A stretch of DNA of 64,000 nt, from positions 65,629 to 129,628 of the forward strand of contig JAGORL010000002.1 in NCBI GenBank assembly GCA_018062825.1, read 5' to 3'. This DNA comes from Patescibacteria group bacterium (lineage in GTDB: Bacteria > Patescibacteriota > Patescibacteriia > UBA9934). How positions within the stretch are numbered: position 1 is the first letter of the stretch; each line of letters begins with the position of its first letter. The notes under the pieces are model-generated. The model did no database searches. It worked only from the letters and a program-made list of their open reading frames with translations, and was not told the DNA's origin. Below, one piece after another: positions 10,185-62,940 of the stretch. The translations under genes were made by a program, and so were the position numbers.

Positions 10185-10202
10185 AGGTTCACGTTCGAAA
10201 TA

Positions 10203-20562: not shown

Positions 20563-20682
20563 CCCCCATTAATCTCGGAAAATTATAACCTGCATTTGCT
20601 ATAACAAAAATCCCCGCTGTAATAAGCGGAGATTTTCGTGGCAGGGGCTCGCAAGCGAGGTTAGAGCCCTTGTAATGGCTAA

Positions 20683-22953
20683 TTAAAACGTTCTTCCTTC
20701 GCGGTATTCCGTGGTTTCTCGACTGTAAACCTTCATTTCTATTAAGTTAAGGAACGTTTTGAGATCCTCATAGCTGATCATGTTTTCTATTTTTATGTCT
20801 GGATGGCGCATGGGGTCGTAACTGCGATAGTCGCCATATATCCTCCAGATCTCACGGGATAAACGCTCTTTAGCTTCCTCAGTATATTTCTCAGGAATTC
20901 CATTACCCGAGCGATCTTTTAGGTGTTGAGCCTGAACTTCGGGTGCTAAGTCGACAACTACTTGAGCAATATCCTTCATCCCAGCTGCCCAAGCGTATGC
21001 AGCTAGTTCGACTGCATCAACATAAATCCTGATCGAAGTGAATTCGTCTTTCGTTTTGGAAAGAGACATTTGATAGAACCTAAGGAATACTTTGATGATT
21101 TCATCTACCGTCTCCTTATCTTTCTTTTTGATAGCCCATAGCGCGTTTGATTTGAGTCTCTCGTATTCCATGTGACCAAAATTCCTCTTTGTATATCCCT
21201 CAGGAAGGAAGCTAAAAATGTTTCTGTAAATAGCGATTACTTCTTTGATCGCAATCGTCAGATTCTCAACGTCATGCTGCTTTTTATTCCATTTCAAAAT
21301 GGTTAACTGTTCTAAGTGCAGATCAAGCGCGCTTAGGACAAAATGAAGCAAAAAGCTATTCGCTTCGACCGCGATGCGTCCCAGTTCTTCGTAATAATCA
21401 AGAAATTCTTCAAAGGTATCGTTATCAAATTCCTCTTTTTTCTCCCAGTTTTGAACGATATATTCATTCAGGAGACGAGGAACGGATTGCTCATTAACGT
21501 TTGAAATTGCCGCATTCAGGCCCTCGGCATTTACTCCAATATTCAAGCCACTTTGAAGATAGAGAGCGGCAACCTTGGAGAGTCCTTGCAAAGACGACTT
21601 CACAAGTGAACGACTGATATCTCCGCTCGCTAAACCCCAAGCGATAACTTTAACAATTCCAATTACTGCCTCTTGAGTGATGTACCACTTCTTCAAAGAG
21701 GTTGCTACCAAAGCTTGTTCTTGAAAATCGTCACCCAGCTGTTTCGCGGTCAAGTAATCGCTAAACGGGACGTATGAGATAACACTTTTCAAATGCCTTA
21801 CACCCGTCATCGTGGCATCATCAACGTTTTTATATAAGGCCTCAACCAAATTTCTGTGCAGATATCCCACAACAAAATCGACATTTGGATTTGAAACATC
21901 TCTGCTTAGTATTTTATAGCTATTGGCTTGTATCGCAATCGCGACAAAACATTGGAAGTTCTGTTGTAATCCCGTCTGGTCTTCCGTCTTGATCAGTTGT
22001 CTGAAAAGATCGTTCAGTTGTTCCAGCACGAACATCAAATACTGATCAGTTCTCCCATCTTGTAACAAGATGCTGACATGAGCGGTTGAATATTTTCTCT
22101 GTTGAAAGTATGTCGATGCGATTTGGATTAAAGCACGGTATCCAGCGGCTGTTACTTCATATTTACGTCTTTCAGTGTACAAGCGCATTGTATCGATTAA
22201 AGATAAAACTTGGGCCTGAAAAGAGTTGAATATATCTGCATGGTCAAAGTTCGCCGTCACGAACATGTCTTCTTGCGGAACGTGAATAGATGTAGATGGT
22301 GGTGGATCCGCCTCAGGCTTTTGCTCGGCTTGTTTTAATGCAAGCAGTAGTTTTCGCACCTTCTCAAGGTAGTCGCTGACCTTTTGCCCCAGTTTACGAA
22401 TTCGTTCGGCGGGATTAATAAAATCCACTATAAACCTATAAAAACCATAAATCCTCCAAAAGACAAAAATAATGACTACAATAGCGAAAAGAAGCGAGAG
22501 ACTAGTAAACAATCCAGAACCTTGCGGAGTAAGGGCCAAGACAAATAAAGTCACCGCGAGCGCTGCCACCACCATGTAGTCCCATAACACCCGTGGACTA
22601 TCAGTGAAATCTTTCAAAATCTGTACACTTCCGTTTTCTGCCGCATGTTGGAGAGCGAAAACGGTCAGAGAAAATGTAATTGCAAGAACACCTGCTATCG
22701 AGGCAGCGATAGACGTAAAAAACTGTAGCCTGTCCCCACCATCAATATTTTGCAGGGCAAGGTTAATCGCTGGGAAGTTCCCAAGGAATAATAGTAGCGC
22801 TCCAGTTCCGAAAATACCCGATATCAGTCCGATGAAAAAATAACGGAAATTTGAGTTCCAAAGGATGAGCCCCTTCATCCGTAGTTGATTGCTCTTACTC
22901 CTCAGCCAGTCTTTCATTTTCATGTAGCGAGAGATTAGCAAATAATGGGTCAT
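20683..22953 (-). CDS. Large membrane protein of unknown function (756 aa), lower GC than its neighbours
   Basis: About 4 N-terminal TM helices, then a ~550-aa soluble alpha-helical region with no motif I can assign. Noticeably AT-richer codon usage (many AAA/TTT/ATT) than flanking genes. Confidence 0.5.
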   Translation of the reverse strand: MTHYLLISRYMKMKDWLRSKSNQLRMKGLILWNSNFRYFFIGLISGIFGTGALLLFLGNFPAINLALQNIDGGDRLQFFTSIAASIAGVLAITFSLTVFALQHAAENGSVQILKDFTDSPRVLWDYMVVAALAVTLFVLALTPQGSGLFTSLSLLFAIVVIIFVFWRIYGFYRFIVDFINPAERIRKLGQKVSDYLEKVRKLLLALKQAEQKPEADPPPSTSIHVPQEDMFVTANFDHADIFNSFQAQVLSLIDTMRLYTERRKYEVTAAGYRALIQIASTYFQQRKYSTAHVSILLQDGRTDQYLMFVLEQLNDLFRQLIKTEDQTGLQQNFQCFVAIAIQANSYKILSRDVSNPNVDFVVGYLHRNLVEALYKNVDDATMTGVRHLKSVISYVPFSDYLTAKQLGDDFQEQALVATSLKKWYITQEAVIGIVKVIAWGLASGDISRSLVKSSLQGLSKVAALYLQSGLNIGVNAEGLNAAISNVNEQSVPRLLNEYIVQNWEKKEEFDNDTFEEFLDYYEELGRIAVEANSFLLHFVLSALDLHLEQLTILKWNKKQHDVENLTIAIKEVIAIYRNIFSFLPEGYTKRNFGHMEYERLKSNALWAIKKKDKETVDEIIKVFLRFYQMSLSKTKDEFTSIRIYVDAVELAAYAWAAGMKDIAQVVVDLAPEVQAQHLKDRSGNGIPEKYTEEAKERLSREIWRIYGDYRSYDPMRHPDIKIENMISYEDLKTFLNLIEMKVYSRETTEYREGRTF

Positions 22954-23055
22954 TTTGCTATCCCTAAAGGTTCTCGCCTCCTCATCCTAACGCATTGAAT
23001 ATATTGCGTAGTTACCGTCGTGAACTTTCATGGCTGGCAAGTTCAGCGACCCGGC

Positions 23056-23656
23056 ATTACAAGAGTGTTCTCCAGTACGGCCAGAACCTGATAAGAAGAG
23101 TTGTAACAATGATTCCGTACAGGATCAAAAGCGGAAAATGTGGGTTGGTAGCGAGGAGCGTGTTCATTCCGGAGAGTTTTTGCGGTAGGCGGATATGCCG
23201 CTCCTGAACATTAAAAAGCGTCACATACCAGAAGATCGGGATAGTTGCTGTCCAAAAAACCAGACACCAAGGACAGAGAGAATTAATAACGAAGGCGCTT
23301 TGATAGAAGAACTAATACACAAAAGCTACTGCACCTGTGACGCCTATTTGTGCACCAATCCAAAACCATCGTTTGAACTGCGCGCCAGCGAGAAGGGCGC
23401 TTCCTATGGTGACAATTATGGGAAAGCCCACCACTCCGAGCAGTGAGTTTGGAAATCCAAATAGGGTCGATTGCCAAGAGTCCATAACCGACGAGCAGCT
23501 GATGAACGGACTGATGTTGCATGGTGGAGTGTAGTTAGGATCAGCGGCCGCAGACATGGACTGAACCGTGAGTTCAAAAGACGCAAAAAGTCCAAGCAAA
23601 CCCATGGCGATGAGGATGTAGGGGAAGGCCTTTTTCACTCCGTCATAGTCTGTCAT
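23056..23656 (-). pseudogene. Vitamin K epoxide reductase (VKOR) family protein, interrupted by a frameshift near 23305-23315
   Basis: Upstream frame (ORF 23312..23719) gives the TM1-TM3 part with loop cysteines CNISPFISCSSV. After its stop, the +1 frame continues LFFYQSAFVINSLCPWCLVFWTATIPIFWYV..., carrying the VKOR CXXC active site CPWC, and stops near 23056. Confidence 0.6.
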
Positions 23657-24177
23657 AGGAGGTAGCGCTTGCTCCGAACGAAGGGGATTTTTGCCCACCA
23701 TTTGCCCAAGCCAAGCCATTCGCCCGCTGACATACGCGTCATGAGAAGAAGGACAAGAATGTAGATGATGTGCTCATCAAGAACGGGATTATGTTCAGGT
23801 GGGAGTCCGGTGGCCAGATACATGAAGAAGAGCATGAGCGATCCGGCGTACCCCGCCACCCGAACGCCTATCCCGAGGATGAGTGAGAGCCCTACGCACA
23901 GCAATCCGAGCATAAAGAGCCAATCGACTATAGCGTTGCCCGCTACGGCCTGAAACAGGCCTTGAAGGGGGCCGTGCGTTGCGTATGTGAGATACCCGTA
24001 TGTCGGAGAGGTCCCGCCAAGCCAAGAAGCCTCTGGCGGCGTACTGAAGCCGAGTCCGAAGACCTTATCAAGAAACGCCCAGAAAAAAATGAATCCGAGG
24101 GAGATACGGAGCATGCCCCAAAGCAAGTGTTCAATGGTGTAGCGCATAGTAGAGAGTATCTCCCTTAAGGATTTCAT
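23653..24177 (-). CDS. DoxX family membrane protein
   Basis: Four hydrophobic helices with the DoxX-like pattern (LLWGMLRISLGFIFFWAFLDK ...), about 170 aa. Adjacent to VKOR, a pairing reported for thiol-oxidoreductase complexes. Confidence 0.55.
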   Translation of the reverse strand: MKSLREILSTMRYTIEHLLWGMLRISLGFIFFWAFLDKVFGLGFSTPPEASWLGGTSPTYGYLTYATHGPLQGLFQAVAGNAIVDWLFMLGLLCVGLSLILGIGVRVAGYAGSLMLFFMYLATGLPPEHNPVLDEHIIYILVLLLMTRMSAGEWLGLGKWWAKIPFVRSKRYLL

Positions 24178-24179
24178 TA

Positions 24180-24872
24180 TTATGTTTTAATCGCAACTTG
24201 AAGTCCTGGGAATTTTCGTTTGATGTTCGACATTACTTCATCTAAGTTCAGGGGTGGCATTTGCGCCAAGTCTGGCGTAAGTGTTTTTTCGTAGCGCACC
24301 TGCTGAAGTGCGTAGAGCTCCCCCGGTTTTAGATAGCCCGCTATGGTCATAATATCCTCTTCATTGTGGAGGGCGGAATAGATTGTGGTTCTGAATTCGT
24401 GGTCAATACCACAGTCTTGAATCATGGTGAAGGTCTTTCTGCAATTCTCCACGGCAATATCGGGAGTCTCGCCGATAACGTCATTATACTTCTCCCAGCG
24501 ATGCTTTACGTCCATGGCGAAGAAATCGACGGCCTCTTTTTGGAGACATCGTTCAATGAGGCGTGGGTTGACACCATTCGTATCGAGCTTTACTCGCAGT
24601 CCAAGGTCTTTGATTTTCTTGAGGAACTCTGGGAGGTCAGGATGCGTTGTCGGTTCGCCCCCGGTCACAACCACTCCGTCAAGCATTGCGGCATCTTCTT
24701 TAATACGTTTCAGTATCGACTCTTCACTTATTTCAGAGTCAGATGTGCTTGGAATGAGTTCGGGATTGTGGCAGTAAACACAGCGAAACGGACACCCTTG
24801 CGTGAACACAATCGAGGCAACGTGTCCGGGGTAATCGATGAGTGTGAGAGGTTGATATCCAGCTATGCGCAT
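24180..24872 (-). CDS. nrdG: Anaerobic ribonucleoside-triphosphate reductase activating protein (radical SAM)
   Basis: CPFRCVYCHNPE is the CX3CX2C radical-SAM cluster motif in the NrdG-typical N-terminal context. Overlaps the nrdD stop by ~10 bp. Confidence 0.8.
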   Translation of the reverse strand: MRIAGYQPLTLIDYPGHVASIVFTQGCPFRCVYCHNPELIPSTSDSEISEESILKRIKEDAAMLDGVVVTGGEPTTHPDLPEFLKKIKDLGLRVKLDTNGVNPRLIERCLQKEAVDFFAMDVKHRWEKYNDVIGETPDIAVENCRKTFTMIQDCGIDHEFRTTIYSALHNEEDIMTIAGYLKPGELYALQQVRYEKTLTPDLAQMPPLNLDEVMSNIKRKFPGLQVAIKT

Positions 24873-26677
24873 ACAGTTTGTTCTTCAGTTTGAGGGATAT
24901 ATTCTTCTCGTTCTGCGTACTCGCTCTTTTTCCCCTTATTCCATTCCTGTACTGGACGGAAATAGCCGACAACGCGTGACCAAACTTCGCATGAAGCCTG
25001 ACAGGACGGGCAAGAACGTACCTCCCCCGCAATGTATCCGTGCGTCGGACAGACGCTGAAGGTTGGCGTAACGGTGATATACGGTAGACGGTGATTTGCA
25101 ATTACTTTCTTCACAAATTCCCGACACATCTTCCAATCGTGGATGCGTTCGCCAAGGAATAGGTGTAGAACGGTGCCGCCCGTATAACGCGTCTGAAGAT
25201 CATCCTGATGTCTGAGAGCGGCGAGAGGGTTGTCTGTGTATCCAACCGGCAAATGAGAAGAGTTTGTATAGTAAGGCGCTTCGCTAGTACCCGCCTGGAT
25301 GATATCGGGGAAACGCTTTTGATCTTCTTTGGCAAAACGGTAGGTTGTGCCCTCTGCCGGGGTAGCTTCAAGATTATAGAGGTGGCCGGTTTCTTCTTGA
25401 TACTTCACAAGTTCGCCCCGCATGAAATCAAGGATCTCCATGGCGAACGCTTTTCCTTCCTCGGTGGCGATGGTGTACTCCTTGCCAAGGAAATTCATAC
25501 AGGCCTCGTTCATGCCATTGAGACCGATGGTTGAGAAATGATTGCGGAGTGAAGGAAGATAGCGCTTTGTGAACGGAAGCAGGCCACGATCGATATTGCT
25601 TTGTACAACCTTCCGCTTGAGTTCAAGCGAGGTTTTGCTGACTTCCATGAGATTGCGAAGCTGAGCAAAGAATTCTTCTTTATTTTTTGTAATATGCGCG
25701 ATCCGGGGGAGATTGATGGTAACGACGCCAACACTTCCCGTCATTTCCGCCGAACCAAAGAGGCCACCTCCGCGTGCACGTAACGCCCTTAGATCGAGTT
25801 GGAGGCGGCAGCACATACTCCGTACGTCGCCGGGATTCAGCGAGGAATTTACGAAGTTTTGGAAATACGGAATACCATATTTTGCCGTCATCTCAAAAAG
25901 ACCCTGAGTATTCGGATGCTCCCAATCGAAGTCTTTTGTGATGTTGTAGGTCGGAATGGGAAATGTGAAAATACGGCCCTTGCTATCACCGGCACTCATG
26001 ACGTCAATAAAGGCCTTGTTAATGACATCCATCTCCTTCTGACAGTCTTCATAAGTGAAATCTTGCTCCTTTCCTCCGATGATTGGTTTTTGCGTGCGCA
26101 TGTCTTCCGGGCAATTCCAATCGAGCGTGATGTTTGTAAACGGCGTTTGCATGCCCCAGCGGGAAGGAACATTGAGATTAAACACAAACTGTTGGATGCC
26201 CTGACGTACATCTTCATATGACAAGCCATCTTTTCTGACGTAGGGAGCAAGAAAAGTATCAAACGAAGAGAAGGCTTGAGCGCCCGCCCACTCGTTTTGG
26301 AGCGTTCCCAGAAAATTTACCATCTGTCCAAGCGCGGTGTCGAAATGCTTTGGTGGGGCTGATTCAACCTTCCCCGACACACCGTTGAAGCCTTCGATAA
26401 GAAGTTGCCGAAGACTCCAGCCAGCGCAGTAACCCGAGAACATGTCGAGGTCATGGATATGAACATTGCCGTCAATATGCGCCTTGCGGACTTCTTCGGG
26501 GTAAATTTTATGAAGCCAATAGTTCGCAATGATTTTTCCTGAAATGTTGAGAATCATGCCGCCGAGGGAATAGCCTTGATTGGCATTTGCATTTACGCGC
26601 CAGTCCAGACGATCGAGGTATTCATCGACGGTCTGGATGGGATCAACGGTTTTAGCGGAAGAGGAGGCGGTTGTCAT
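24863..26677 (-). CDS. nrdD: Anaerobic ribonucleoside-triphosphate reductase (class III)
   Basis: 604 aa. C-terminal zinc ribbon CPTHGY...CPSC...C and glycyl-radical motif SRVVGYFRPV (the RVxGY motif). Core blocks are typical of NrdD. Confidence 0.85.
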   Translation of the reverse strand: MTTASSSAKTVDPIQTVDEYLDRLDWRVNANANQGYSLGGMILNISGKIIANYWLHKIYPEEVRKAHIDGNVHIHDLDMFSGYCAGWSLRQLLIEGFNGVSGKVESAPPKHFDTALGQMVNFLGTLQNEWAGAQAFSSFDTFLAPYVRKDGLSYEDVRQGIQQFVFNLNVPSRWGMQTPFTNITLDWNCPEDMRTQKPIIGGKEQDFTYEDCQKEMDVINKAFIDVMSAGDSKGRIFTFPIPTYNITKDFDWEHPNTQGLFEMTAKYGIPYFQNFVNSSLNPGDVRSMCCRLQLDLRALRARGGGLFGSAEMTGSVGVVTINLPRIAHITKNKEEFFAQLRNLMEVSKTSLELKRKVVQSNIDRGLLPFTKRYLPSLRNHFSTIGLNGMNEACMNFLGKEYTIATEEGKAFAMEILDFMRGELVKYQEETGHLYNLEATPAEGTTYRFAKEDQKRFPDIIQAGTSEAPYYTNSSHLPVGYTDNPLAALRHQDDLQTRYTGGTVLHLFLGERIHDWKMCREFVKKVIANHRLPYITVTPTFSVCPTHGYIAGEVRSCPSCQASCEVWSRVVGYFRPVQEWNKGKKSEYAEREEYIPQTEEQTVCA

Positions 26678-26732
26678 AAAAAAAATAAAAACCCGCTTGC
26701 GCGAGCTTCATGAGCTTCTTAGGTGGGATTCT

Positions 26733-26945
26733 TTAGGTTGTATTTGGCAGTTGTGCCGATGGGCAGTGGATGCGGTTAGGGCATTTTTCAATCATGCAAA
26801 GCAGATTGTTAAATTGTGATTTAGATACCGTCGTCACCCCTTTGCAGCTTTTGCAGAGCACTTGAATTTCCGCTTCGACCACCACTCCTTTGAAGAGGAG
26901 TTTATGGCACGTCGCGCATCGATACTCGTGAAGCTGAGGGGTCAT
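26733..26945 (-). CDS. Small zinc-ribbon protein, Mu Com-like fold (tentative)
   Basis: YRCATCHKLLFKG...VLCKSCKG follows the Com-family pattern RC..C.KLL......KC..CK. Sits immediately upstream of nrdD on the same strand. Confidence 0.35.
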   Translation of the reverse strand: MTPQLHEYRCATCHKLLFKGVVVEAEIQVLCKSCKGVTTVSKSQFNNLLCMIEKCPNRIHCPSAQLPNTT

Positions 26946-27065
26946 ACAGGGTTCTTACATCATAGCACGGGAAAAATTCTCCTCACACCATATGTTGTGG
27001 TATCTCCTGACTTTGTCCACAACATGCAGATTTTATCGCTGATATTGGAGATATAAACAGGATGT

Positions 27066-27093
27066 TTGCAGAATACCCCCCAGGGGGTATAAT
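27066..27093 (+). promoter_or_regulatory. Sigma-70-like promoter (-35 TTGCAG, -10 TATAAT) overlapped by a CsoR-type operator palindrome ATACCCCCCAGGGGGTAT
   Basis: Perfect GC-rich dyad at 27073..27090, overlapping the -10 box at 27088..27093. Located 10 bp upstream of the csoR ATG. Confidence 0.6.
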
Positions 27094-27102
27094 CATCTGC
27101 AT

Positions 27103-27369
27103 ATGAAAGCAGAACAGAAAAAGAACTTGTTACGGCGGCTGAAGATTTTAGAGGGTCAGGTTCGGGGGCTTCAGGAACTGATCGGAAAAGACACCTATTG
27201 CATCGACGTTATTACCCAAACGTCAGCCGTAAAGCAGGGGCTATCAAATATCGAGGACATCCTGCTTGAGGGTCATCTGGGCCATTGCGCGATCAATCAA
27301 ATTAAGAACGGCAAGCAAGATAAGGCTATTGAGGAGATCTTGAAAGTCTACAAACTCAAGCGTAAATAA
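27103..27369 (+). CDS. csoR: CsoR/RcnR family metal-sensing transcriptional repressor
   Basis: [19 protein letters not shown]...[16 protein letters not shown]...[10 protein letters not shown] carries the conserved C-H-C metal ligand pattern of CsoR. Confidence 0.75.
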
Positions 27370-27370
27370 T

Positions 27371-29611
27371 ATGCAAAAAGTAAATGCCCATGTCTCGGGA
27401 ATGCACTGCGCTTCTTGTGTTGGTCGAATAGAAAAAACCCTTGGTAAGCAAAAAGGTGTACAGGCGGTTTCTGTAAACCTTGCGACTGAAGAGGCGCGTA
27501 TTACGCTTGATGCTTCGCAAACTGACGTTGACACGCTTTCGCAAGCTATTGAACCGATGGGCTATAAGCTCCATCCAAAAGAGCACGACATGGCGGAAGC
27601 TCACGGGGGAGAGCACGATCACGCGAAGGCGTCAGAAGGTGAAGTGTCGGCACTTCGCAAGAAAGTACTTATTTCGATGCCGCTTGTCGTCTTCGCCGCA
27701 GGCATGATGCTGTACGAAGTCCTATCGGAGAACTTTGGATTACTCCCCCGCATTTCGGATGTCGTTGAGGAGTTCTTGCATCATCTCCTTCCGGTTTTTG
27801 CTACCTACATGATGTTTGCGATCGGTACGCCATACCTCCGCGGTCTTTGGATGTTCTTCCGCCGAGGCGTTGCCGACATGGATACGCTTGTCGGCCTTGG
27901 AACAATGACAGCTTTTCTTTACAGTTTCACGCTGGCAGCATTTGAAGAACCGCTCGCGCCTTATGTAGACGTCACCGCCACCTATTACGACGTCACAATC
28001 GTGGTCATCGGACTTATTACGCTGGGTAAATATTTTGAGGTCAGGGCAAAACAAAAGACGGGAGATGCGATTAAAAAGCTCATGGGATTGCAGGTAAAAA
28101 CTGCTACCGTGCTTCGTAACGGAAAGGAAGAAACACTTGCCATTGATCAGGTGCAGAAGGGCGATCTTGTGCTTGTGAAGCCAGGCATGAAGATTCCGGT
28201 TGATGGGGTCGTGGTCGAGGGCTCATCATTTCTTGATGAGGCGATGCTCACCGGAGAGCCAGTGCCGGTTGAGAAAAAGGAGGGCGACAAAGTGTCAGCA
28301 GGAACCATAAATACAACAGGCGCGTTTACCATGCAGGCAACGGGCGTGGGGTCTGAAACCTTGCTTGCTCATATCATCACTCTCGTCGCTGAGGCTCAGG
28401 GGTCGAAAGCTCCAATCCAACGGTTAGCAGATAAAATTTCAAGCATCTTTGTTCCGATTGTCCTTGTCATCGCGCTGATCGCGCTCATCGTGTGGCTTCT
28501 TGTCGGAAGTGTTCCTATGGCGTTATCGGCGTTCGTTACGGTTCTTGTCATTGCCTGTCCGTGCGCACTTGGCCTTGCCACGCCGACGGCCATCATGGTC
28601 GGGGTTGGACGCGGGGCCACGCACGGCATCCTTATTAAGAATGCGGAAATTCTTGAAAAGCTTCACAAAATCACGACACTTGTCATTGATAAAACGGGAA
28701 CGCTGACCGAGGGCAAGCCAAAGGTGCTCGCGGTGTCGGCAACCGGAAGCCTGAATGAGCATGACGCGCTTACCGTTCTTGCAAGCCTTGAAGCGCAATC
28801 GGAACACCCGCTTGCTGACGCCATTCTTTCCTATGCCAATGCTCAAGGAGTGAAGAAGGAGAAGGTATCGGGGTATGAGAATATTCCCGGGCAGGGATTG
28901 AAAGCGACGATTGACGGTGCTGTTTATTATGTTGGCAGTCCCAGTTTGCTCGCATCCTTGAACCTTGGAATGCCGAAGAGCACGAAGATGCCGAAGGGGG
29001 CGACGGTCATTTATCTTACGAATGAAAAAGAGGTACTCCTTACGGTTGCCATTGGCGACCAAATTAAGAAAGGCGCAAAAGATGCCCTTACGAAACTTCA
29101 CGGACTTGGTATCCGCGTCATCATGGCAACGGGCGACAACAAGGAAGCCGCCCAGGTCGTTGCAAAAGAACTCGGTATCAATGAGGTGTTCGCCGAAGTG
29201 CTTCCTCAGGACAAGCTCGCGAAGATCAAAGAACTTCAGGAAAAGGGAGAGGTCGTCGGTATGGCGGGAGACGGTGTAAATGATGCCCCTGCGCTTGCTC
29301 AGGCAGATATTGGGATCGCCATGGCTACAGGCTCCGACGTGTCGATTGAAACGAGCGATGTTGCACTTCTTCACGGTGATATTGGAAAAATTACGCAGGC
29401 CATTGAGCTTTCAAGGGCAACCATGGCGACGGTCAAGCAAAATCTTTTTTGGGCGTTTATTTACAATATTGTCGGCATTCCACTTGCGGCAGGCGTATTC
29501 TTCCCAGTCTTCGGCTGGCTCCTGTCCCCGATATTCGCAGGGTTTGCCATGGCCATGTCGAGTGTATCGGTCGTCCTCAATTCGCTTCGCCTTAAGCTGA
29601 AAAAGCTCTAA
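27371..29611 (+). CDS. copA: Copper-translocating P1B-type ATPase
   Basis: N-terminal HMA domain [18 protein letters not shown] motif [20 protein letters not shown] phosphorylation site. [10 protein letters not shown] hinge. Confidence 0.9.
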
Positions 29612-29615
29612 TCAT

Positions 29616-30623
29616 ATGGCCGAACAGAAATCACAGATATTCCATGTCGAAGGAATGACATGCGCCTCCTGCGTTTTCTTTATTGAGGAAACCTTACCGG
29701 GAAAGGCAGGGGTGCAGACGGTGAAAGTGAATCTAAAATCTTGTACGGCAGTCGTATCGGGGAAGTTTACGGACGAACCCGTAAAGCTTGCAGAAAAGCT
29801 TACAAAATTCATTGAAAGGAACGGTTACCGTTTGTCGCCTGAGAAAACGGAGGCGAAGAAGAATCATAGAGAATTTCTTATTGCCGTTCCTGCCGCGCTT
29901 TCGTTTATCGTTGCTTTCCTCTTACTTCAACAGCTTGGTTTAGTGAATCTCGTCGGTTTGGGAAGCGTCAGCTACGGCACTGCCGCCTTGGTCGGTCTTA
30001 TTGCGTCTGTTTCAACGTGTCTTGCGGTCGTCGGGGGTCTTGTCTTATCCCTTTCGGCAAACGCCGCCAAGAGCCACGGTAAATGGCAATCCCAGGCGAT
30101 GTTCCATGTCGGCCGGCTGGGAGGGTTCTTTATTCTTGGAGGAGTAATAGGAATGCTTGGCCGGGTCTTCCAACTTGGTCTCGTGGGAACGGGTATCCTT
30201 GGGCTTGTCGTTGCGGTCGTCATGCTCGTCCTTGGTCTGAACCTCATTGATACTTTTCCAGGCGTTGCACGATTAGTGCCAAAGCTGCCAAGGGCATTTG
30301 CGAAGCATACGAGCCGCGCCAGTACGTCCTCGCATATACTCGCTCCGCTTCTTGTCGGGGTTGCGACGTTCTTCTTGCCATGTGGGTTCACCCAATCCAT
30401 GCAGGTTTACACGCTTACGACCGGAAGCTTCCTCACGGGCGCGCTGACGATGTTCTTCTTCGCACTTGGGACGTTCCCCGTCCTTGCCGCTCTTTCATTC
30501 GGTGCGCTTGAAATCTCGCACAAACCTTGGAAGGGTACCTTCTTCAAGGCTGCGGGCATCATTGTTATTGCACTCGCGTTGTTCAACGCTTGGAACGCTT
30601 TCGTTGTTCTCGGAATTCTCTAA
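29616..30623 (+). CDS. HMA (heavy-metal-associated) domain fused to a CcdA/DsbD_2- or TauE-like polytopic membrane domain
   Basis: N-terminal GMTCASCVFFIEETL (the HMA MxCxxC motif). Then ~7 TM helices with conserved Cys in TM1 (STCLAVVGG) and TM4 (FLPCGFTQSM), consistent with CcdA-like thiol transporters. Confidence 0.45.
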   Translation: MAEQKSQIFHVEGMTCASCVFFIEETLPGKAGVQTVKVNLKSCTAVVSGKFTDEPVKLAEKLTKFIERNGYRLSPEKTEAKKNHREFLIAVPAALSFIVAFLLLQQLGLVNLVGLGSVSYGTAALVGLIASVSTCLAVVGGLVLSLSANAAKSHGKWQSQAMFHVGRLGGFFILGGVIGMLGRVFQLGLVGTGILGLVVAVVMLVLGLNLIDTFPGVARLVPKLPRAFAKHTSRASTSSHILAPLLVGVATFFLPCGFTQSMQVYTLTTGSFLTGALTMFFFALGTFPVLAALSFGALEISHKPWKGTFFKAAGIIVIALALFNAWNAFVVLGIL

Positions 30624-30630
30624 TATTTCT

Positions 30631-31023
30631 ATGCAAAAAGATACAAAGATAGCACTCATCTTCTGCGGAATATTGGTCGGCCTTCTTACGCTGACTTTTG
30701 TGTTAAGAGGAAACATAGGATCTGAATCGACAACTGGTGGCGTGACCATGGAAAACGGAAGGCAGATTATCGATATTACGGCGAGGGGCGGGTATACGCC
30801 GAATTTAATCGAAGCACAGGCGGGCTTGCCCACGGATATCCGGGTGCTGACTGATGGAACTTATGATTGTTCCTCAAGTATCATCATTCCGTCCTTGGGG
30901 TACCAAAAGATGCTTCAGGCAACTGGCACCGAAACCATTTCATTGACCGCTGATCAAGCTCAAGGGACCGTTGAAGGGACGTGTGGAATGGGAATGTATC
31001 GTTTTGAAATTGCTTTTAAATAA
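30631..31023 (+). CDS. Cupredoxin-like (Cupredoxin_1) small exported protein
   Basis: Signal anchor MQKDTKIALIFCGILVGLLTLTF. C-terminal GTCGMGMYRFEIAFK and YDCSSSII fit the single-Cys/Met cupredoxin_1 pattern seen in copper operons. ATG at 30631 lies inside ORF 30466..31023. Confidence 0.45.
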   Translation: MQKDTKIALIFCGILVGLLTLTFVLRGNIGSESTTGGVTMENGRQIIDITARGGYTPNLIEAQAGLPTDIRVLTDGTYDCSSSIIIPSLGYQKMLQATGTETISLTADQAQGTVEGTCGMGMYRFEIAFK

Positions 31024-31069
31024 AGCATTGGGCGTAAGAACTGGTTACGCTACAGAACCCGACTCCCCT

Positions 31070-31642
31070 TTAAAAAGGTTCACTGTGAACGGCGTTCTCC
31101 GTCAGCCAGCCGCGAAGCGATTCCGTCGCTCGTACGTCGTCTTCGTTATAGTTCACGATGTCGGTTAACACGCTCCTAATCTGTTTCTCTAGCCACTCCT
31201 CGTACCAAAAGATTGACTGCGCTCCCCCTGCTTTAGCATGACGCCATTTGAAGTTAAGAAACTTGGATTTTGCGATGTCTTTGATGGAGTAAAAGTACAG
31301 GGGGAGAATAACGCATTCCCGTACCACGATTTCCAGATCAACAAAGCGAGTCATGAAGCGGCGGAGCGCCTCGCAATTGCCGTACATGAGCGCTAGCTTG
31401 TTGCACTGTACGCGCTCATATTTATTGTAGTGCCAAACCGTATAACCGTCCTTAGGGAGGATTTCTAACCACCGCAGAAAGACTCCCCACATTTCTCTTT
31501 CGTCGTCTGGTGCTTCAGCGAGAAAATAAACGAAGTAGCGACCATCATCCTGCTTCCGTACATGGCCTATTTTGGCGTATAAGCCCTCAGGATCTCCTGA
31601 AACCCAGAAGCCCCATAAATGTCCACGGTCTCGGATCGAACT
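31070..31642 (-). pseudogene. N-terminally truncated RecB-family/RNase-H-like (TM0106/YprB-like) nuclease remnant
   Basis: The minus-strand frame is open from a TAA at ~31643-31645 down to 31070, with no start codon until the internal M at 31492. The translation ...RYFVYFLAEAPDDEREMWGVFLRWLEILPKDGYTVWHYNKYERVQCNKLALMYGN...IVNYNEDDVRATESLRGWLTENA ends with the YNEDD.RAT..L..WL tail typical of this family. The N-terminal catalytic half is missing. Confidence 0.5.
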
Positions 31643-31764
31643 ATACGCTTAAAGCAGGAAAACTGGCCTTAAACATAGAAGATGTGTGGGAACTGTTCGC
31701 AAAACACTCAGCACAGCTTCATGCGGATATGAAGCTGCTCGAACTCCTAGAAAATGGCGAACCT

Positions 31765-31797
31765 AAAGAAAAAACCACAGAGTTTTTATCTGTGGTT
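31765..31797 (-). terminator. Rho-independent terminator immediately 3' of tRNA-Trp
   Basis: Minus strand: aaccacaga-taaaaact-tctgtggtt followed by TTTTTT. Confidence 0.65.
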
Positions 31798-31803
31798 TCC
31801 TCT

Positions 31804-31878
31804 TGGCAGGGGAACAGGGATTCGAACCCTGAATGACGGTTTTGGAGACCGTAGTGATAACCGTTTCACTATTCCCCT
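31804..31878 (-). tRNA. tRNA-Trp (anticodon CCA)
   Basis: Minus-strand read AGGGGAA-TA-GTGA-AACGGTTA-TCAC-T-ACGGT-CTCCAAA-ACCGT-CATT-CAGGG-TTCGAAT-CCCTG-TTCCCCT-G-CCA. All stems pair; GTTCGAAT T-loop. Confidence 0.85.
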
Positions 31879-33540: not shown

Positions 33541-34212
33541 GTGGCAAGCTTTCGAACGCATATCTCTGTTGGCATTGCTCTTGGCGTTGCCGGAGCGATT
33601 GGGTCCCTCGGGCTAGCCTTTGCTCCAGCCAGTTTTGACATTGCTATTCTAATCTTCATCGCCTGCACAATTGGCGCCCTCATGCCAGACATGGATAGCG
33701 ATTCCGGCATACCATTTCATGTTACTTTCGGGTCACTCTCTCTGATTACTGCTGGACTCATCTTCTACTACGCTCTCCAAAGATCAAATGGAGACTATCT
33801 CATCGCTACCCTCAGCGCCTTAAGCGCCGGGGCGATCATCTGGGTAGTAGTCGGAAGCGTGTTCAAAAAATGTACAAAACACCGAGGCATGGCGCACTCA
33901 ACCCCAGCGGCCATTCTCGCCGGCCTCGTAACGCTCACCCTAGCGCTTGCCGTACAATTTGACTCATGGACTGCAACGTACCTTGGAATCGCCGTAACCG
34001 CTGGCTACCTAGCACACCTCATGCTCGACGAATTCCATGCTGCGGTAAACTTCCACGGCACGCCCTTTATTCCAAATAAAGCTCTTGGGAGCGCTCTCAA
34101 ATTCACCTCAAGAAATAAAGCGATCACCACAAGCGTCTATATCGCAATTATTCTGCTCATCATTTGGAATAGCGACGTACTCTCACTACTTGCCAACCGA
34201 GTAACACAGTAA
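33541..34212 (+). CDS. Membrane-bound metal-dependent hydrolase, YdjM/DUF457-like (tentative)
   Basis: GTG start. MASFRTHISVGIALGVAGAI... has the N-terminal THxxxG motif and 5-6 TM helices with His residues, as in DUF457. Confidence 0.4.
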   Translation: MASFRTHISVGIALGVAGAIGSLGLAFAPASFDIAILIFIACTIGALMPDMDSDSGIPFHVTFGSLSLITAGLIFYYALQRSNGDYLIATLSALSAGAIIWVVVGSVFKKCTKHRGMAHSTPAAILAGLVTLTLALAVQFDSWTATYLGIAVTAGYLAHLMLDEFHAAVNFHGTPFIPNKALGSALKFTSRNKAITTSVYIAIILLIIWNSDVLSLLANRVTQ

Positions 34213-35126: not shown

Positions 35127-35392
35127 TTTACCTGCTAGGCATCCTCCTTGGTATCAATCTCTTTGCCTTTGCACTCTTTGGCGCTGATAAACTTTTCGCC
35201 GTCCTTCACTGGCGCCGCATTCGCGAACGTACACTCATCGGCGTAGCGCTAGCCGGAGGTTGCCTGGGCGGCCTTCTTGGCATGTATCTTTTTCGTCATA
35301 AAACAAAAAAGACCTCCTTTCAACTACCACTTGCCCTTGGCATATTGGTTGAGGTTGCGGTACTTACCCTTATTTTTTGGCAATACAAGTAA
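35123..35392 (+). CDS. DUF1294 domain membrane protein
   Basis: FGADKLFAVLHWRRIRERTLIGVALAGGCLGGLLGMYLFRHKTKK matches the DUF1294 core (DK..A.....RIPE..L...AL.GG..G...gM..FRHKT.K). Confidence 0.6.
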   Translation: MIYLLGILLGINLFAFALFGADKLFAVLHWRRIRERTLIGVALAGGCLGGLLGMYLFRHKTKKTSFQLPLALGILVEVAVLTLIFWQYK

Positions 35393-35396
35393 AAAC

Positions 35397-35449
35397 ATTG
35401 ACTTTTATCAGATTTTCATGGATACTATCCCCTTCCTATCAGATAGGAA
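35397..35449 (+). promoter_or_regulatory. Putative promoter (-35 TTGACT, -10 GATACT) followed by a perfect inverted repeat CTTCCTATC-A-GATAGGAAG upstream of the sigma-factor gene
   Basis: Seen directly. The inverted repeat (9-bp arms) is at 35431..35449. Confidence 0.4.
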
Positions 35450-35467
35450 GACTGCACCTTTCACAGG

Positions 35468-36286
35468 ATGGGTATGCCAACAAATACCGAGCTCTTCAGG
35501 GCATTGGCCGAAACAAAAAGCGAGGAGGAACGTCGCGCGCTACGAAATCGAATCGTCGTGAAGAATGTCGGAATCGCCTACTGGTTCGCAAAACGTCACT
35601 GCACGGGCGTGCCAAAAGATAGGCATGAGGATGTCCAACAGGAATGCCTGACTGGACTCATTGAAGCAGCCGAGCGCTTTGACCTAAAGCACGGGGCAAG
35701 CTTCAGCACCTACGCCGCCTGGTGGATGCGACACCAGTTGCAGTTCGTGATCGGTCCGGAATCCTTCGGCGGCGTCACGGTGCCCCGGTACATCCGCGAC
35801 ATCGTCATCAAGACCTCTAAAGAAGGTGGCTACCTCGATCATGTCAAGCGAGGCAAGCATCCAGACTTCATCAAGGGGCTCGATATCGCAGTACAGGTAC
35901 ATCAAGCCCAGCGAGTGAACCTCGACGGCATGACTCGTGACGGCAACGTCCATGAGATGCTAAGCGGTCATGTCATGGATCCGGAAACGCATGCCATGGC
36001 AAGCGAAGCGCTCAATGAAGCCGAGAAGCGCCTCGTGGAAATCGAAACCACCCTGCGACTGATGAAGGTCAATCGCAAAGAGATCCTGGCGCGACGCTAT
36101 GGATTCCTGGGTCACCAACCCGCTGATCAAGCTGAAGTCGCGCGACAGCTCAACTGTAGCCGTCAAAACGTGCAACAGGTCGAACGCAAGGCTCTTGAGG
36201 AACTCGTCGAACGGACGGGATTCTCAGAGCAAGACATCGTGCACATACACGAGCACCGCCACCACCTGGCTGAACTCGTCAACTAG
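35468..36286 (+). CDS. Atypical sigma-70 family RNA polymerase sigma factor
   Basis: Region 2-like FSTYAAWWMRHQLQ. Region 4 HTH ARRYGFLGHQPADQAEVARQLNCSRQNVQQVERKALEEL. A long non-canonical insert lies between them. GC content is visibly higher (about 55-57%) than the surrounding genes. Confidence 0.6.
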   Translation: MGMPTNTELFRALAETKSEEERRALRNRIVVKNVGIAYWFAKRHCTGVPKDRHEDVQQECLTGLIEAAERFDLKHGASFSTYAAWWMRHQLQFVIGPESFGGVTVPRYIRDIVIKTSKEGGYLDHVKRGKHPDFIKGLDIAVQVHQAQRVNLDGMTRDGNVHEMLSGHVMDPETHAMASEALNEAEKRLVEIETTLRLMKVNRKEILARRYGFLGHQPADQAEVARQLNCSRQNVQQVERKALEELVERTGFSEQDIVHIHEHRHHLAELVN

Positions 36287-62871: not shown

Positions 62872-62940
62872 ACACGTTGGGATGTTCTTTCACCAATCCC
62901 CGCCCAACGCCTCACGTCCACCACCCCACAGGAGAACACC

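What the first reader, a model, noticed from the sequence alone, without database searches (positions are those of the whole stretch)
31070..31878. Truncated RecB-family/RNase-H-like nuclease remnant abutting the 3' end of tRNA-Trp, next to the copper and class III RNR gene block
The frame 31070..31642 encodes the C-terminal half of a TM0106/YprB-like nuclease, ending in the characteristic NYNEDDVRATESLRGWL. It begins directly after an in-frame TAA and has no N-terminal catalytic half. About 160 bp further, on the same strand, is the 3' end of tRNA-Trp(CCA) with its own terminator. Gene decay next to a tRNA 3' end is the classic scar of site-specific integration or excision. On the other side lie the csoR-copA-HMA-cupredoxin operon, nrdDG, DoxX/VKOR and the low-GC 756-aa gene. 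The 20.6-31.8 kb block may therefore be an old genomic island that lost its integrase.
Basis: partly seen in the sequence, partly recalled or inferred. Interest (0 to 1): 0.55.

Follow-up and report, generated by a model that had tools for sequence, protein, structure and literature searches.

The report
Deletion scar in tRNA-Trp genomic island
The half-gene next to tRNA-Trp is the scar of a 13-kb internal deletion: it removed the integrase, replication and restriction genes of a mobile genomic island in a Patescibacteria (CPR) bacterium and left the island's copper-resistance and anaerobic-reductase cargo fixed in the chromosome.

Summary
Window 31070..31620 (minus strand) holds codons 311-493 of a 493-aa TM0106-type nuclease, and nothing upstream of them.

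- **Intact element in relatives.** It lies at the 3' end of tRNA-Trp: large serine recombinase, PrimPol module, Type III-like Mod/Res, nuclease, then the copper/nrdDG/VKOR cargo. It ends in a 32-nt pseudo-tRNA-Trp 3' fragment.
- **Both ends survive in the window.** The last 71 recombinase codons lie at 31621..31836 (+), joined directly to the nuclease remnant at 31620/31621. This is one ~13.0-kb deletion.
- **Far end.** The pseudo-tRNA fragment sits at 20639..20670 (-) in direct orientation. It shares the 9-nt core CCCCTGCCA with the tRNA 3' end at 31804..31812.
- **Composition.** The island (20648..31803) has GC skew near zero (+0.03), against about -0.16 in both flanks.
- **Mobility.** Island DNA is 95.7-99.9% identical between genomes whose tRNA-Trp bodies and flanks differ.
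- **Age.** The deletion is recent. The remnant has 22 lineage-specific nucleotide changes but only one amino-acid change, and no frameshift or stop.

The unusual point is inferred, not shown: a serine, not tyrosine, integrase apparently targets a tRNA gene.

The parts
20595..20638 (-). Hairpin followed by a T-run directly after the far-end core. Inferred to be the host's original tRNA-Trp terminator, displaced by integration.
   Evidence: Folds at -19 kcal/mol, z -5.9. This stretch differs in every genome (W, A, B2, L022-L025), while the 27-32 nt before it are identical.
20639..20670 (-). Pseudo-tRNA-Trp 3' fragment: a degenerate T-arm plus the acceptor 3' end and CCA. It is the far-end att site (attR). 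The 9-nt core CCCCTGCCA is at 20639..20647.
   Evidence: It aligns to the T-arm and acceptor of tRNA-Trp. It is on the same strand as the tRNA. CCCCTGCCA occurs in the window only here and at 31804..31812. The 27-mer is exact in A, B1, B2, L015 and four JGI contigs, and none is expected by chance in the window.
20683..22953 (-). DUF2254 membrane protein (756 aa), low GC. It fills the variable cargo slot at the far end of the island.
   Evidence: Pfam DUF2254. GC 0.42. Strains A, B1 and B2 carry a 1362-1381-aa NACHT/DUF8371-like protein in this slot, and L015 carries nothing there. Homology to strain A stops at 23001 and resumes at 20672.
23057..23656 (-). VKOR-family gene, inactivated by a TGG-to-TAG nonsense change (stop at 23312..23314; 114 of 199 codons remain).
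   Evidence: Alignment with strain A. The NCBI product is 114 aa against 199 aa in A.
23653..26677 (-). Cargo genes: a DoxX/DoxD-like membrane protein, then NrdG activase (24180..24872) and class III ribonucleotide reductase NrdD (24863..26677).
   Evidence: Pfam. Identity to strain A is 96-97%, with pN/pS 0.02-0.08.
27103..31023 (+). Copper cargo operon: CsoR, CopA-type P-type ATPase, HMA-DsbD_2 membrane protein, cupredoxin.
   Evidence: Pfam. Identity to strain A is 95-98%, with pN/pS 0.06-0.24.
31070..31620 (-). Nuclease remnant: the last two bases of codon 311, codons 312-493 and the stop of a TM0106-type (Cas4-like + RNase_H_2) nuclease.
   Evidence: Aligned with the intact genes P0076/P0078 in L005/L007 from position 10932.
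31617..31621 (.). Deletion junction, between 31620 and 31621. AAAT (31617..31620) occurs on both parental sides, offset by one base on the recombinase side.
   Evidence: Three-way alignment of the window with the nuclease and recombinase sequences of strain A. Deletion size is ~13.0 kb (13,035-13,036 bp) in strain A coordinates.
31621..31836 (+). Remnant of the large serine recombinase (integrase) gene: the last 71 codons plus the stop. It is convergent with the tRNA, and its last 33 nt are antisense to the tRNA 3' part.
   Evidence: blastp: 67/70 identical to the strain A recombinase (E 2e-44) and 52/72 to the strain B1 recombinase (E 5e-33). DNA identity is 94.5% to L020 and 79% to L010. The full B1 protein has Resolvase, Recombinase and Zn_ribbon_recom domains.
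31765..31803 (-). Element-supplied terminator hairpin, serving tRNA-Trp and, on the other strand, the recombinase gene.
   Evidence: -19 kcal/mol, z -5.7. Identical in strain A, whose tRNA body differs.
31804..31878 (-). tRNA-Trp(CCA). The near-end att core CCCCTGCCA is its last 9 nt (31804..31812).
   Evidence: ARAGORN and Rfam. Core position. The tRNA body upstream of the core is specific to each genome.

Best explanation
The window comes from a Patescibacteria (CPR) genome. It carries, at the 3' end of its tRNA-Trp gene, a crippled copy of a ~26-kb integrative element.

**The intact element, as seen in relatives.** Reading away from the tRNA it holds:
1. A large serine recombinase gene, convergent with the tRNA.
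2. Small genes and a PrimPol replication module.
3. A Type III-like Mod methyltransferase, a Res-like helicase and a TM0106-type nuclease.
4. Cargo: a copper-export operon, nrdDG, DoxX/VKOR, and one variable large gene.
5. A 32-nt pseudo-tRNA-Trp 3' fragment.

**How it integrates (inferred).** Recombination occurs within the last 8-9 nt of the tRNA (CCCCTGCCA). The host tRNA stays whole and receives an element-borne terminator. The host's own terminator ends up beyond the far-end copy of the core.

**What happened in the window's lineage (shown by sequence comparison).** A single illegitimate deletion of ~13.0 kb joined codon 311 of the nuclease gene to codon ~484 of the recombinase gene. It removed the recombinase catalytic domain, the replication module, the methyltransferase, the helicase and the first 310 nuclease codons.

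**Consequences.** The 11.2-kb remainder (20648..31803) can no longer excise by itself. The nuclease fragment is a promoter-less, start-less pseudogene with no function of its own. The deletion is recent, because the fragment has not yet begun to decay.
For: **1. Intact ortholog in place.** The 90%-identity cluster of the window's ORF contains 493-aa proteins. Their contigs (L005/L006/L018/L020 = strain A; L007/L010/L013 = strain B1) show Mtase, helicase and nuclease directly beside the same copper/nrd block.

**2. Both deletion edges identified.**
- Window 23001..31620 is 95.7% identical to strain A over 8,622 bp. The match stops inside the nuclease gene.
- Window 31617..31850 is 94.5% identical to the 3' end of the strain A recombinase gene.
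- The remnant translates to the recombinase C-terminus.
- The junction is resolved to the base. Its size is ~13.0 kb.

**3. tRNA-Trp adjacency recurs.** In B1 the 554-aa recombinase (Resolvase + Recombinase + Zn ribbon) ends inside tRNA-Trp. In B2 (L012, an 874-kb contig) a 340-aa remnant of it abuts tRNA-Trp.

**4. Far-end att site.** An exact 27-mer ending in CCCCTGCCA lies at window 20639..20665 on the tRNA's strand. It is also at the far end in A, B1 and B2 and in four JGI contigs, two of which have tRNA-Trp upstream on the same strand.

**5. Mobility.**
- tRNA bodies differ among W, A, B1 and B2 up to the core.
- The B1-B2 flank is only 74-92% identical in short stretches, while their islands are 99.2-99.9% identical.
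- The strain A contig ends inside the tRNA, and the strain B1 contig ends one base after the far-end motif.

**6. Composition.** Island GC skew is +0.03 against -0.18 and -0.14 in the flanks. Eight consecutive 1-kb windows are positive, while none of 51 outside windows exceeds -0.026. Island copies in A, B1 and B2 are also near zero.

**7. Recency.** The remnant versus A and B gives pN/pS 0.04-0.05. It has 22 window-specific nucleotide changes but 1 amino-acid change, and no stop or frameshift in 182 codons.

**8. Precedent.** B2 carries an independent 12.9-kb deletion with a 10-bp microhomology. It removes the same modules.
Against: - **No proof of mobility.** No empty tRNA-Trp site and no circular attP junction was found. 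Excision and integration are inferred from comparative anatomy only.
- **Recombinase role inferred.** That the serine recombinase is the integrase rests on adjacency and on the absence of any tyrosine recombinase domain in the element. The 392-418-aa gene with no family match is uncharacterised.
- **Vertical descent is partly possible.** Cargo genes of W/A versus B are 75-78% identical, similar to core-gene divergence (W versus L008 about 80%). Part of the island could be old and vertically inherited, with only some modules exchanged.
- **Host difference rests on limited data.** The W-versus-A host difference rests on the tRNA body and one flank. The strain A contig ends in the tRNA.
- **Junction microhomology is imperfect.** It is offset by one base.
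- **Where the deletion happened is untested.** It could have happened before transfer into this host rather than in situ.
Confidence: 0.85

Rival explanations
1. The fragment is a working stand-alone gene: a short RNase_H_2-domain protein of 140 aa from ATG 31492, or 188 aa from ATC as annotated at NCBI. It would be kept by selection.
For: The frame is intact and pN/pS is 0.04. NCBI annotates it as a protein. Several database homologs are also short (130-180 aa) on long contigs.
Against: - It lacks the first exonuclease motif (FDIEGDP) and the whole Cas4-like domain.
- Homology begins exactly at a deletion junction and upstream of any canonical start.
- It was the third gene of an operon whose promoter region is deleted.
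- Only 1 of the 22 changes specific to this lineage alters an amino acid. Selection on the still-intact gene before a recent deletion would give that pattern.
- The neighbouring recombinase remnant is equally undecayed and cannot be functional.
- The short homologs examined are themselves truncations (L001) or lie among fragmented genes (L026).
Confidence: 0.05
2. There is no island. The copper/nrd block and the nuclease gene are ancestral chromosome, the tRNA adjacency is coincidental, and the gene was simply eroded by a local deletion.
For: The copper/nrd/nuclease linkage is conserved in genomes that are only 75-78% identical.
Against: - A direct repeat of the tRNA 3' end bounds the block in every genome.
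- A serine recombinase or its remnant sits at the tRNA in all four genomes.
- The block lacks the chromosome's strand skew.
- Island identity far exceeds flank identity.
- Assemblies break at the two att sites.
Confidence: 0.05
3. The island reached this host already deleted. It could have been mobilised in trans by a complete relative, or acquired by homologous recombination through the tRNA and flanking DNA. On this view the 13-kb deletion did not occur in this chromosome.
For: A second, independent deletion derivative (B2) sits in a genome whose tRNA and flank differ from B1, yet it is 99.2-99.9% identical to the complete B1 element. Both att sites of the window's copy are intact.
Against: There is nothing direct against it. 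It differs from the best explanation only in where the deletion took place. The identical-strain contigs L003/L004 carry the deleted form, and no complete copy with the window's tRNA body was found.
Confidence: 0.2
4. The junction is an assembly chimera that joins two strains or two copies of the element.
For: Metagenome-assembled contigs can be chimeric at repeats. Related assemblies do break near this locus.
Against: An independent assembler (Logan, SRR11088367) gives a 4,723-bp contig that is 100% identical across the junction. The two joined sequences share at most 4 nt, too little to mislead an assembler. The NCBI contig is 197,750 bp.
Confidence: 0.02

Closest known systems
tRNA-gene genomic islands as defined for Islander/TIGER (Hudson, Lau & Williams 2015, PMC4383910)
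   Same: An intact tRNA gene and a 3' tRNA-gene fragment in direct orientation mark the island's two ends. The integrase gene sits next to the tRNA and cargo lies distal to it. Tandem arrays of fragments occur at one tRNA (L022, L023, L025).
   Different: [quoted passage not shown] The crossover is at the extreme 3' end, so the whole tRNA stays host-derived. The far-end 'fragment' is element-borne and identical in all hosts, rather than a displaced host fragment. In the window the integrase is deleted, so Islander's integrase filter would reject it.
Tycheposons of Prochlorococcus (bioRxiv 10.1101/2020.12.28.424599)
   Same: Modular tRNA-associated elements: a site-specific integrase, an autonomous-replication module (primase/polymerase), then cargo or defence genes. 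They are flanked by full and partial tRNA genes, sit in variable islands of a streamlined genome, and decayed copies are common.
   Different: 910 of 937 tycheposons and cryptic elements use tyrosine recombinases, and only the rest use a large serine recombinase. The phylum differs (Cyanobacteria versus Patescibacteria). No sequence relationship was tested or found here.
TM0106 family RecB-like putative nuclease (TIGR03491; Pfam RNase_H_2 PF13482 plus a Cas4-like PD-(D/E)xK domain)
   Same: The remnant matches the last 149 model positions above the family cutoff. The intact relative (493 aa) has both domains.
   Different: The window keeps only 183 of 493 codons. It lacks the Cas4-like domain and the first exonuclease motif, and has no start codon. 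In relatives the gene is the third member of a Type III-like Mod/Res operon. I do not know of a described role for this family in that context (my own knowledge).
'Grounded' or domesticated prophages and islands, immobilised by deletion of their integration and replication genes (reviewed in PMC6379469; listed, text not read here)
   Same: Internal deletion removes the mobility functions and leaves cargo fixed in the chromosome. Two independent ~13-kb deletions (W and B2) do this here.
   Different: Here both att sites survive intact, so the remnant might still be mobilised in trans. Both deletion junctions are resolved to the base against undeleted copies.
Integration-dependent alteration of an integrase gene that spans attP (mycobacteriophages BPs, Brujita and Charlie; recalled from my own knowledge of Broussard et al. 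2013, not checked here)
   Same: The recombinase reading frame runs through the att core, so its C-terminus is predicted to differ between integrated and excised states.
   Different: Those are tyrosine integrases in which integration removes a degradation tag. Here the enzyme is a serine recombinase and no regulatory consequence is shown.

Membership tests
TM0106 family RecB-like nuclease (TIGR03491) | C-terminal RNase_H_2 (DEDD-type exonuclease-like) domain scoring above the family cutoff | tested here: met
   132.6 bits against a cutoff of 97.45, model positions 314-462 of 462. Pfam RNase_H_2 positions 20-164 of 165.
TM0106 family RecB-like nuclease (TIGR03491) | N-terminal Cas4/RecB-like PD-(D/E)xK domain and full length of about 460-500 aa | tested here: not met
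   Only 183 codons are present. The Cas4-like region is residues 7-216 of the intact relative P0076 and is absent from the window. The window therefore holds a gene fragment, not a member protein.
TM0106 family RecB-like nuclease (TIGR03491) | First exonuclease motif (D-x-E, FDIEGDP) at the start of the RNase_H_2 domain | tested here: not met
   The motif lies 9-15 residues upstream of the breakpoint in P0076 and in most homologs. In the window that position holds antisense recombinase sequence.
tRNA-gene-integrated genomic island (Islander definition, PMC4383910) | An intact tRNA gene plus a fragment of its 3' end in direct orientation, bracketing the island | tested here: met
   tRNA-Trp at 31804..31878 (-) and the pseudo-3' fragment at 20639..20670 (-), sharing CCCCTGCCA.
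tRNA-gene-integrated genomic island (Islander definition, PMC4383910) | An integrase gene inside the island | tested here: not met
   In the window only the last 71 codons remain. The feature is met in relatives A and B1, with recombinases of 542+ aa and 554 aa.
tRNA-gene-integrated genomic island (Islander definition, PMC4383910) | Foreign origin or mobility: presence/absence polymorphism, atypical composition | tested here: inconclusive
   Composition is atypical and island identity far exceeds flank identity. But no empty site and no circular junction was found.
Large serine recombinase (integrase) | Resolvase catalytic domain, then Recombinase domain, then zinc-ribbon domain | tested here: met
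   For the B1 protein: E 1.2e-23, 2.8e-10 and 1.5e-9. The window retains only the region C-terminal to these domains.
Large serine recombinase (integrase) | Catalyses attP x attB recombination at the observed sites (tRNA-Trp 3' end) | not testable with these tools
   Inferred from adjacency in four genomes and from the lack of any other recombinase domain in the element.
Type III restriction-modification system (the deleted module) | A Mod methyltransferase plus a Res helicase-nuclease in one operon | tested here: inconclusive
   In relatives, Mod matches MTase_III at E 6.5e-85. The helicase matches only the helicase part of REase_III models. A separate Cas4-like nuclease follows. Nothing of Mod or Res remains in the window.

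The most novel reading that the evidence does not exclude
The element represents an undescribed family of Patescibacteria integrative elements with three features.
- A large serine recombinase specifically targets the last 8-9 nt of tRNA-Trp. A field-defining paper said this class of target is unknown for serine integrases.
- The recombinase reading frame crosses the att core, so its C-terminus changes on integration.
- The family is currently moving copper-resistance, anaerobic-reductase and defence genes between CPR species (99.2-99.9% identity across different hosts).

If so, the recombinase and its 30-40-nt att sites would be a ready-made integration tool for organisms that are still hard to manipulate genetically (my own assessment).
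Probability: 0.5. Interest if true: 0.65.

Novelty: new variant of a known kind. Interest (0 to 1): 0.5.

Why it matters
- **For annotation.** The NCBI product 'TM0106 family RecB-like putative nuclease' (188 aa, ATC start) is a pseudogene fragment, and the neighbouring VKOR is a nonsense pseudogene. The copper and class III RNR genes of this genome are island cargo, not core metabolism.
- **For biology.** The case shows, base by base, how a mobile island becomes fixed. Two independent ~13-kb deletions removed the integrase, replication and restriction modules and spared the cargo.
- **For the CPR field.** It documents an integrative element shared at 95.7-99.9% identity between genomes with different tRNA-Trp genes. 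That is evidence of recent gene flow in a group with small genomes. My three literature searches on CPR/Patescibacteria integrative elements listed no paper describing one.
- **For recombinase biology.** If confirmed, a serine integrase using a tRNA gene as attB would broaden the known target range of that family.

Tried and rejected
- **Repeat search inside the window.** A >=11-mer scan and a 28-mer allowing 3 mismatches found no repeat. The real repeat is 9 nt exact plus a degenerate arm, and only comparison with relatives revealed it.
- **Exact 72-nt tRNA-Trp in the 185,579 representative genomes.** No match, so no synteny test from that source.
- **Recombinase protein against representative genomes and IMG/VR.** No relatives were confirmed. 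PrimPol gave only ~35% identical viral hits. The att 27-mer was absent from IMG/VR.
- **First pN/pS run on the fragment.** It used the wrong frame (row nucl_frag) and is discarded. The corrected run is.
- **Inversion as the cause of the GC-skew flip.** I considered this because the tRNA plus island is inverted relative to Band_7 and YdjM when compared with B2. I rejected it as the main cause, because the island has near-zero skew in all four genomes whatever its orientation.
- **The closest non-cluster homolog as a second tRNA-linked case.** P0001/L001 is also 5'-truncated, but it lies next to an unrelated gene with no tRNA on its 1.7-kb contig.
- **Other homolog contexts.** L002 is a Chlamydia-like contig and P0048/L026 is a region of fragmented genes. 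Neither was informative.
- **Extending a relative's contig.** I worked around this through exact-cluster look-ups.
Full report
**1. What is in the window**

tRNA-Trp(CCA) lies on the minus strand at 31804..31878. On the same strand, 155 nt further on, a frame is open from 31648 down to the TAA stop at 31070..31072. That is 192 codons, preceded by an in-frame TAA at 31649..31651.

The frame matches Pfam RNase_H_2 over model positions 20-164 of 165 (E 2e-22). It matches only positions 314-462 of 462 of TIGR03491, the TM0106 family RecB-like nuclease, at 132.6 bits against a cutoff of 97.45. The first canonical start codon is ATG 31492, at residue 53, so homology extends upstream of any usable start.

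**2. Source organism and the intact gene**

Exact-sequence look-ups identify the source as a 'Patescibacteria group bacterium' MAG (locus tag KBC55_, 197,750-bp contig). NCBI annotates a 188-aa product there that needs an ATC start.

The 90%-identity cluster of the window's ORF contains 493-aa proteins. Three sets of contigs were retrieved:
- **Strain A:** L005/L006/L018/L020, from SRR15198266 and SRR15198268.
- **Strain B1:** L007/L010/L013, from SRR19053153.
- **Strain B2:** L012, an 874-kb ENA contig.

In A and B1 the nuclease is the third gene of an operon:
- an N6/N4 methyltransferase, matching Type III Mod at E 6.5e-85;
- a ResIII/SWI2-SNF2 helicase, matching only the helicase part of Type III Res models;
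- the nuclease, with an N-terminal Cas4-like domain and a C-terminal RNase_H_2 domain.

Upstream lie a gene of 392-418 aa with no family match, DUF5659, a PrimPol of 767-769 aa, several small genes, and a 554-aa large serine recombinase. The recombinase has Resolvase (E 1.2e-23), Recombinase (E 2.8e-10) and Zn_ribbon_recom (E 1.5e-9) domains. Its 3' end overlaps tRNA-Trp on the opposite strand.

Downstream of the nuclease lies the same cargo as in the window: cupredoxin, HMA-DsbD_2, CopA, CsoR, NrdD, NrdG, DoxX-like and VKOR. After that comes a 1362-1381-aa NACHT/DUF8371-like protein.

**3. The deletion**

- blastn aligns window 23001..31620 with strain A at 95.7% over 8,622 bp. The match stops at nuclease codon 311.
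- The next base onward, window 31617..31850, is 94.5% identical to the 3' end of the strain A recombinase gene. It is 79% identical to that of B1.
- Translated on the plus strand, 31621..31836 gives the last 71 residues of the recombinase. Of these, 67/70 are identical to A (E 2e-44) and 52/72 to B1 (E 5e-33).
- A three-way alignment places the junction between 31620 and 31621. The tetranucleotide AAAT is present on both parental sides, offset by one base on the recombinase side.
- In strain A coordinates the missing stretch is ~13.0 kb (13,035-13,036 bp).

The 'remnant abutting the tRNA' is therefore one edge of a single internal deletion. The other edge is in the integrase gene. The first nine codons of the open frame (31648..31622) are antisense recombinase sequence, not nuclease.

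An independent Logan assembly (L003) is 100% identical across the junction.

**4. The island's two ends**

Just past the last cargo gene, A, B1 and B2 share a short sequence with window 20631..20672 at 93-97% identity. On the tRNA's strand it reads AGGG(C/T)TCTAACCTCGCTTGCGAGCCCCTGCCA. It aligns with the T-arm, acceptor 3' strand and CCA of tRNA-Trp.

The 9-mer CCCCTGCCA occurs in the window only at 20639..20647 and at the tRNA 3' end, 31804..31812, both on the minus strand. The 27-mer TCTAACCTCGCTTGCGAGCCCCTGCCA was found as follows:
- It is exact in the window (none expected by chance), and in A, B1, B2 and L015.
- It is exact in four JGI metagenome contigs.
- L022 and L024 have tRNA-Trp upstream on the same strand.
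- L022, L023 and L025 carry two or three copies.

What follows the core differs in each genome and is a strong hairpin with a T-run; in the window it folds at -19 kcal/mol. What follows the core at the tRNA is the same in W and A, another -19 kcal/mol hairpin and then the recombinase gene end, although their tRNA bodies differ.

The simplest reading is crossover within the last 8-9 nt of the tRNA. The pseudo-tRNA arm and the tRNA-proximal terminator would belong to the element. The far-end terminator would be the host's original one. On this reading the island in the window is 20648..31803 (11,156 bp). The undeleted copies are about 26.2 kb.

**5. Evidence that it is, or was, mobile**

- **tRNA bodies differ.** The tRNA-Trp bodies of W, A, B1 and B2 differ at many positions up to the core, including compensating acceptor-stem pairs.
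- **Island identity exceeds flank identity.** B1 and B2 islands are 99.2-99.9% identical over 13.3 kb. Their flank on the tRNA 5' side matches only in three short stretches of 74-92%, and has different gene content.
- **Assemblies break at the att sites.** The strain A contig ends inside the tRNA. The strain B1 contig ends one base after the far-end motif.
- **Composition.** The window's flanks have GC skew -0.18 and -0.14, and AT skew +0.17 and +0.12. The island has +0.03 and -0.01. Eight consecutive 1-kb windows are positive, while none of 51 outside windows exceeds -0.026. The island copies in A, B1 and B2 are also near zero.

No empty site and no circular junction was recovered. Mobility is therefore inferred, not shown.

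A caveat: cargo genes of W/A versus B are 75-78% identical, similar to core divergence between related species here (W versus L008 about 80%). Long residence with module exchange therefore cannot be excluded. The element is indeed mosaic. The nuclease 3' region is 89-92% identical among W, A and B alike, while the adjacent cargo is 95-98% (W-A) or 72-78% (W-B).

**6. Age of the deletion and status of the fragment**

Across the 182 shared codons, pN/pS is 0.04 (W-A, pS 0.44) and 0.05 (W-B). In a three-way comparison the window has 22 unique nucleotide changes but one unique amino-acid change, and no stop or frameshift. The recombinase remnant is equally clean.

A fragment cannot act as this enzyme when it lacks its promoter, start codon, Cas4-like domain and first exonuclease motif. 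The purifying-selection signal therefore dates from before the deletion, which must be recent relative to the divergence from A and B.

Decay of the island has begun elsewhere. VKOR carries a TGG-to-TAG nonsense change at codon 115 of 199, in otherwise near-identical sequence.

**7. A parallel case**

B2 differs from B1 by an independent 12,919-bp deletion, with the 10-bp microhomology TTTGCGTTTA at the junction. It runs from recombinase codon 231 to 140 bp past the nuclease stop. Twice, then, the integrase, replication and restriction modules were lost and the cargo was kept.

**8. Comparison with what is known**

The modular order (integrase, replication, then defence or cargo genes) and the arrays of partial tRNA genes resemble the tycheposons of Prochlorococcus (bioRxiv 10.1101/2020.12.28.424599).

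The departure is the recombinase class. [quoted passage not shown] Among the 937 tycheposons and cryptic elements, all but 27 carry tyrosine recombinases.

The literature searches I ran listed no paper describing a tRNA-targeting serine integrase or an integrative element of this kind in Patescibacteria. These searches cover open-access text only.

**9. Verdict**

As a single locus it is an ordinary kind of event: a deletion scar in a decaying island. It gains interest from three things: the base-level reconstruction, the evidence of recent element sharing between CPR genomes, and the probable serine integrase with a tRNA target. Interest is 0.5, and the novelty class is a new variant of a known kind.

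Noticed in passing
window 23312..23314 (within 23057..23656, minus strand): The VKOR-family gene has a TGG-to-TAG nonsense change at codon 115 of 199. The sequence after it is 100% identical to strain A through the gene's stop, so this is a very recent pseudogene. NCBI annotates the 114-aa stub.
   Followed up: yes
window 20683..22953, compared with L018 10775..14920, L012 10536..14624 and L015 4447..4723: There is a variable cargo slot next to the far-end att site. It holds a DUF2254 protein (756 aa, GC 0.42) in the window, a 1362-1381-aa NACHT/DUF8371-like STAND-type protein in A, B1 and B2, and nothing in L015. Conserved sequence flanks the slot on both sides.
   Followed up: partly
L012 1351..2373 and junction 2359..2368: Strain B2 has an independent 12,919-bp deletion in the same element, with a 10-bp microhomology (TTTGCGTTTA). 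It leaves a 340-aa recombinase stub at tRNA-Trp and removes the nuclease entirely.
   Followed up: yes
window 31804..31836 (plus strand), and L010 12874..12906: The recombinase reading frame runs antisense through the terminator, the att core and the tRNA T-arm, giving ...SSWQGNRDSNPE*. In the excised circle the frame would instead read into the pseudo-tRNA arm. By hand translation for strain A this gives ...SSWQGLASEVRTLACDNRLPVLAQ*. The C-terminus should therefore change with integration state.
   Followed up: partly
window 9495..10185 (Band_7), 20639..31878, and 33541..34212 (YdjM), compared with L012: Relative to B2, the segment [tRNA-Trp + island] is inverted between the conserved flank markers Band_7 and YdjM, which keep the same order and orientation in both genomes.
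   Followed up: partly
L022 257..294, 1032..1063, 2223..2273 with tRNA-Trp at 4963..5037; L023 1089..3085; L025 1360..2582: Two or three copies of the 27-32-nt pseudo-tRNA-Trp motif lie within 1-3 kb, separated by one or two small genes. One of these is a Bro-N/antirepressor-like protein, judged by eye. The pattern suggests tandem accretion and decay of elements at tRNA-Trp, or a cassette-like array.
   Followed up: no
L005 11529..19494 compared with L007 11742..19653: The cargo is rearranged between A/W and B. The copper operon is inverted and placed on the other side of nrdDG-DoxX-VKOR. The Mod and helicase genes are almost unalignable between A and B, while the flanking PrimPol and nuclease genes are 82-84% identical. 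This suggests a fast-evolving or swapped specificity module.
   Followed up: no
L001 797..1369 (P0001, 68% identical); also P0021, P0023, P0025, P0029, P0040, P0049, P0056: Many database homologs of this nuclease are short C-terminal pieces on long contigs. L001 keeps YFDIEGDP but is cut just upstream, next to an unrelated gene. No full-length (>334 aa) protein appeared among the 68 hits of the word-indexed search. Truncation of this gene may be recurrent, or the pattern may come from the search method.
   Followed up: partly
L005/L020 operon (Mod 618 aa, helicase 757 aa, nuclease 493 aa): The Type III-like Res protein matches only the helicase part of the Res models, and a separate Cas4-like + RNase_H_2 nuclease follows it. 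This may be a split Type III system in which the TM0106-type protein supplies the cleavage activity.
   Followed up: no
window 62950..64000: GC content jumps abruptly from about 0.48 to 0.66-0.70 and stays there to the end of the window. The longest ORF there (62890..63870, minus) has no Pfam match and looks like an antisense read of a GC-rich gene.
   Followed up: partly
L008 13410..15629, compared with window about 35350..35580: A relative about 80% identical carries a 739-aa ResIII/DEAD helicase with a sigma-70 region 4 domain, inserted between the sigma-factor gene and DUF1294. The insertion is absent from the window and from L009.
   Followed up: no
window 26733..26945 (minus): A 70-aa zinc-ribbon ORF with a weak Mu Com-like match (E 8e-4) sits between nrdD and csoR. 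An ORF of 68 aa is called at the corresponding place in B1 and B2.
   Followed up: no
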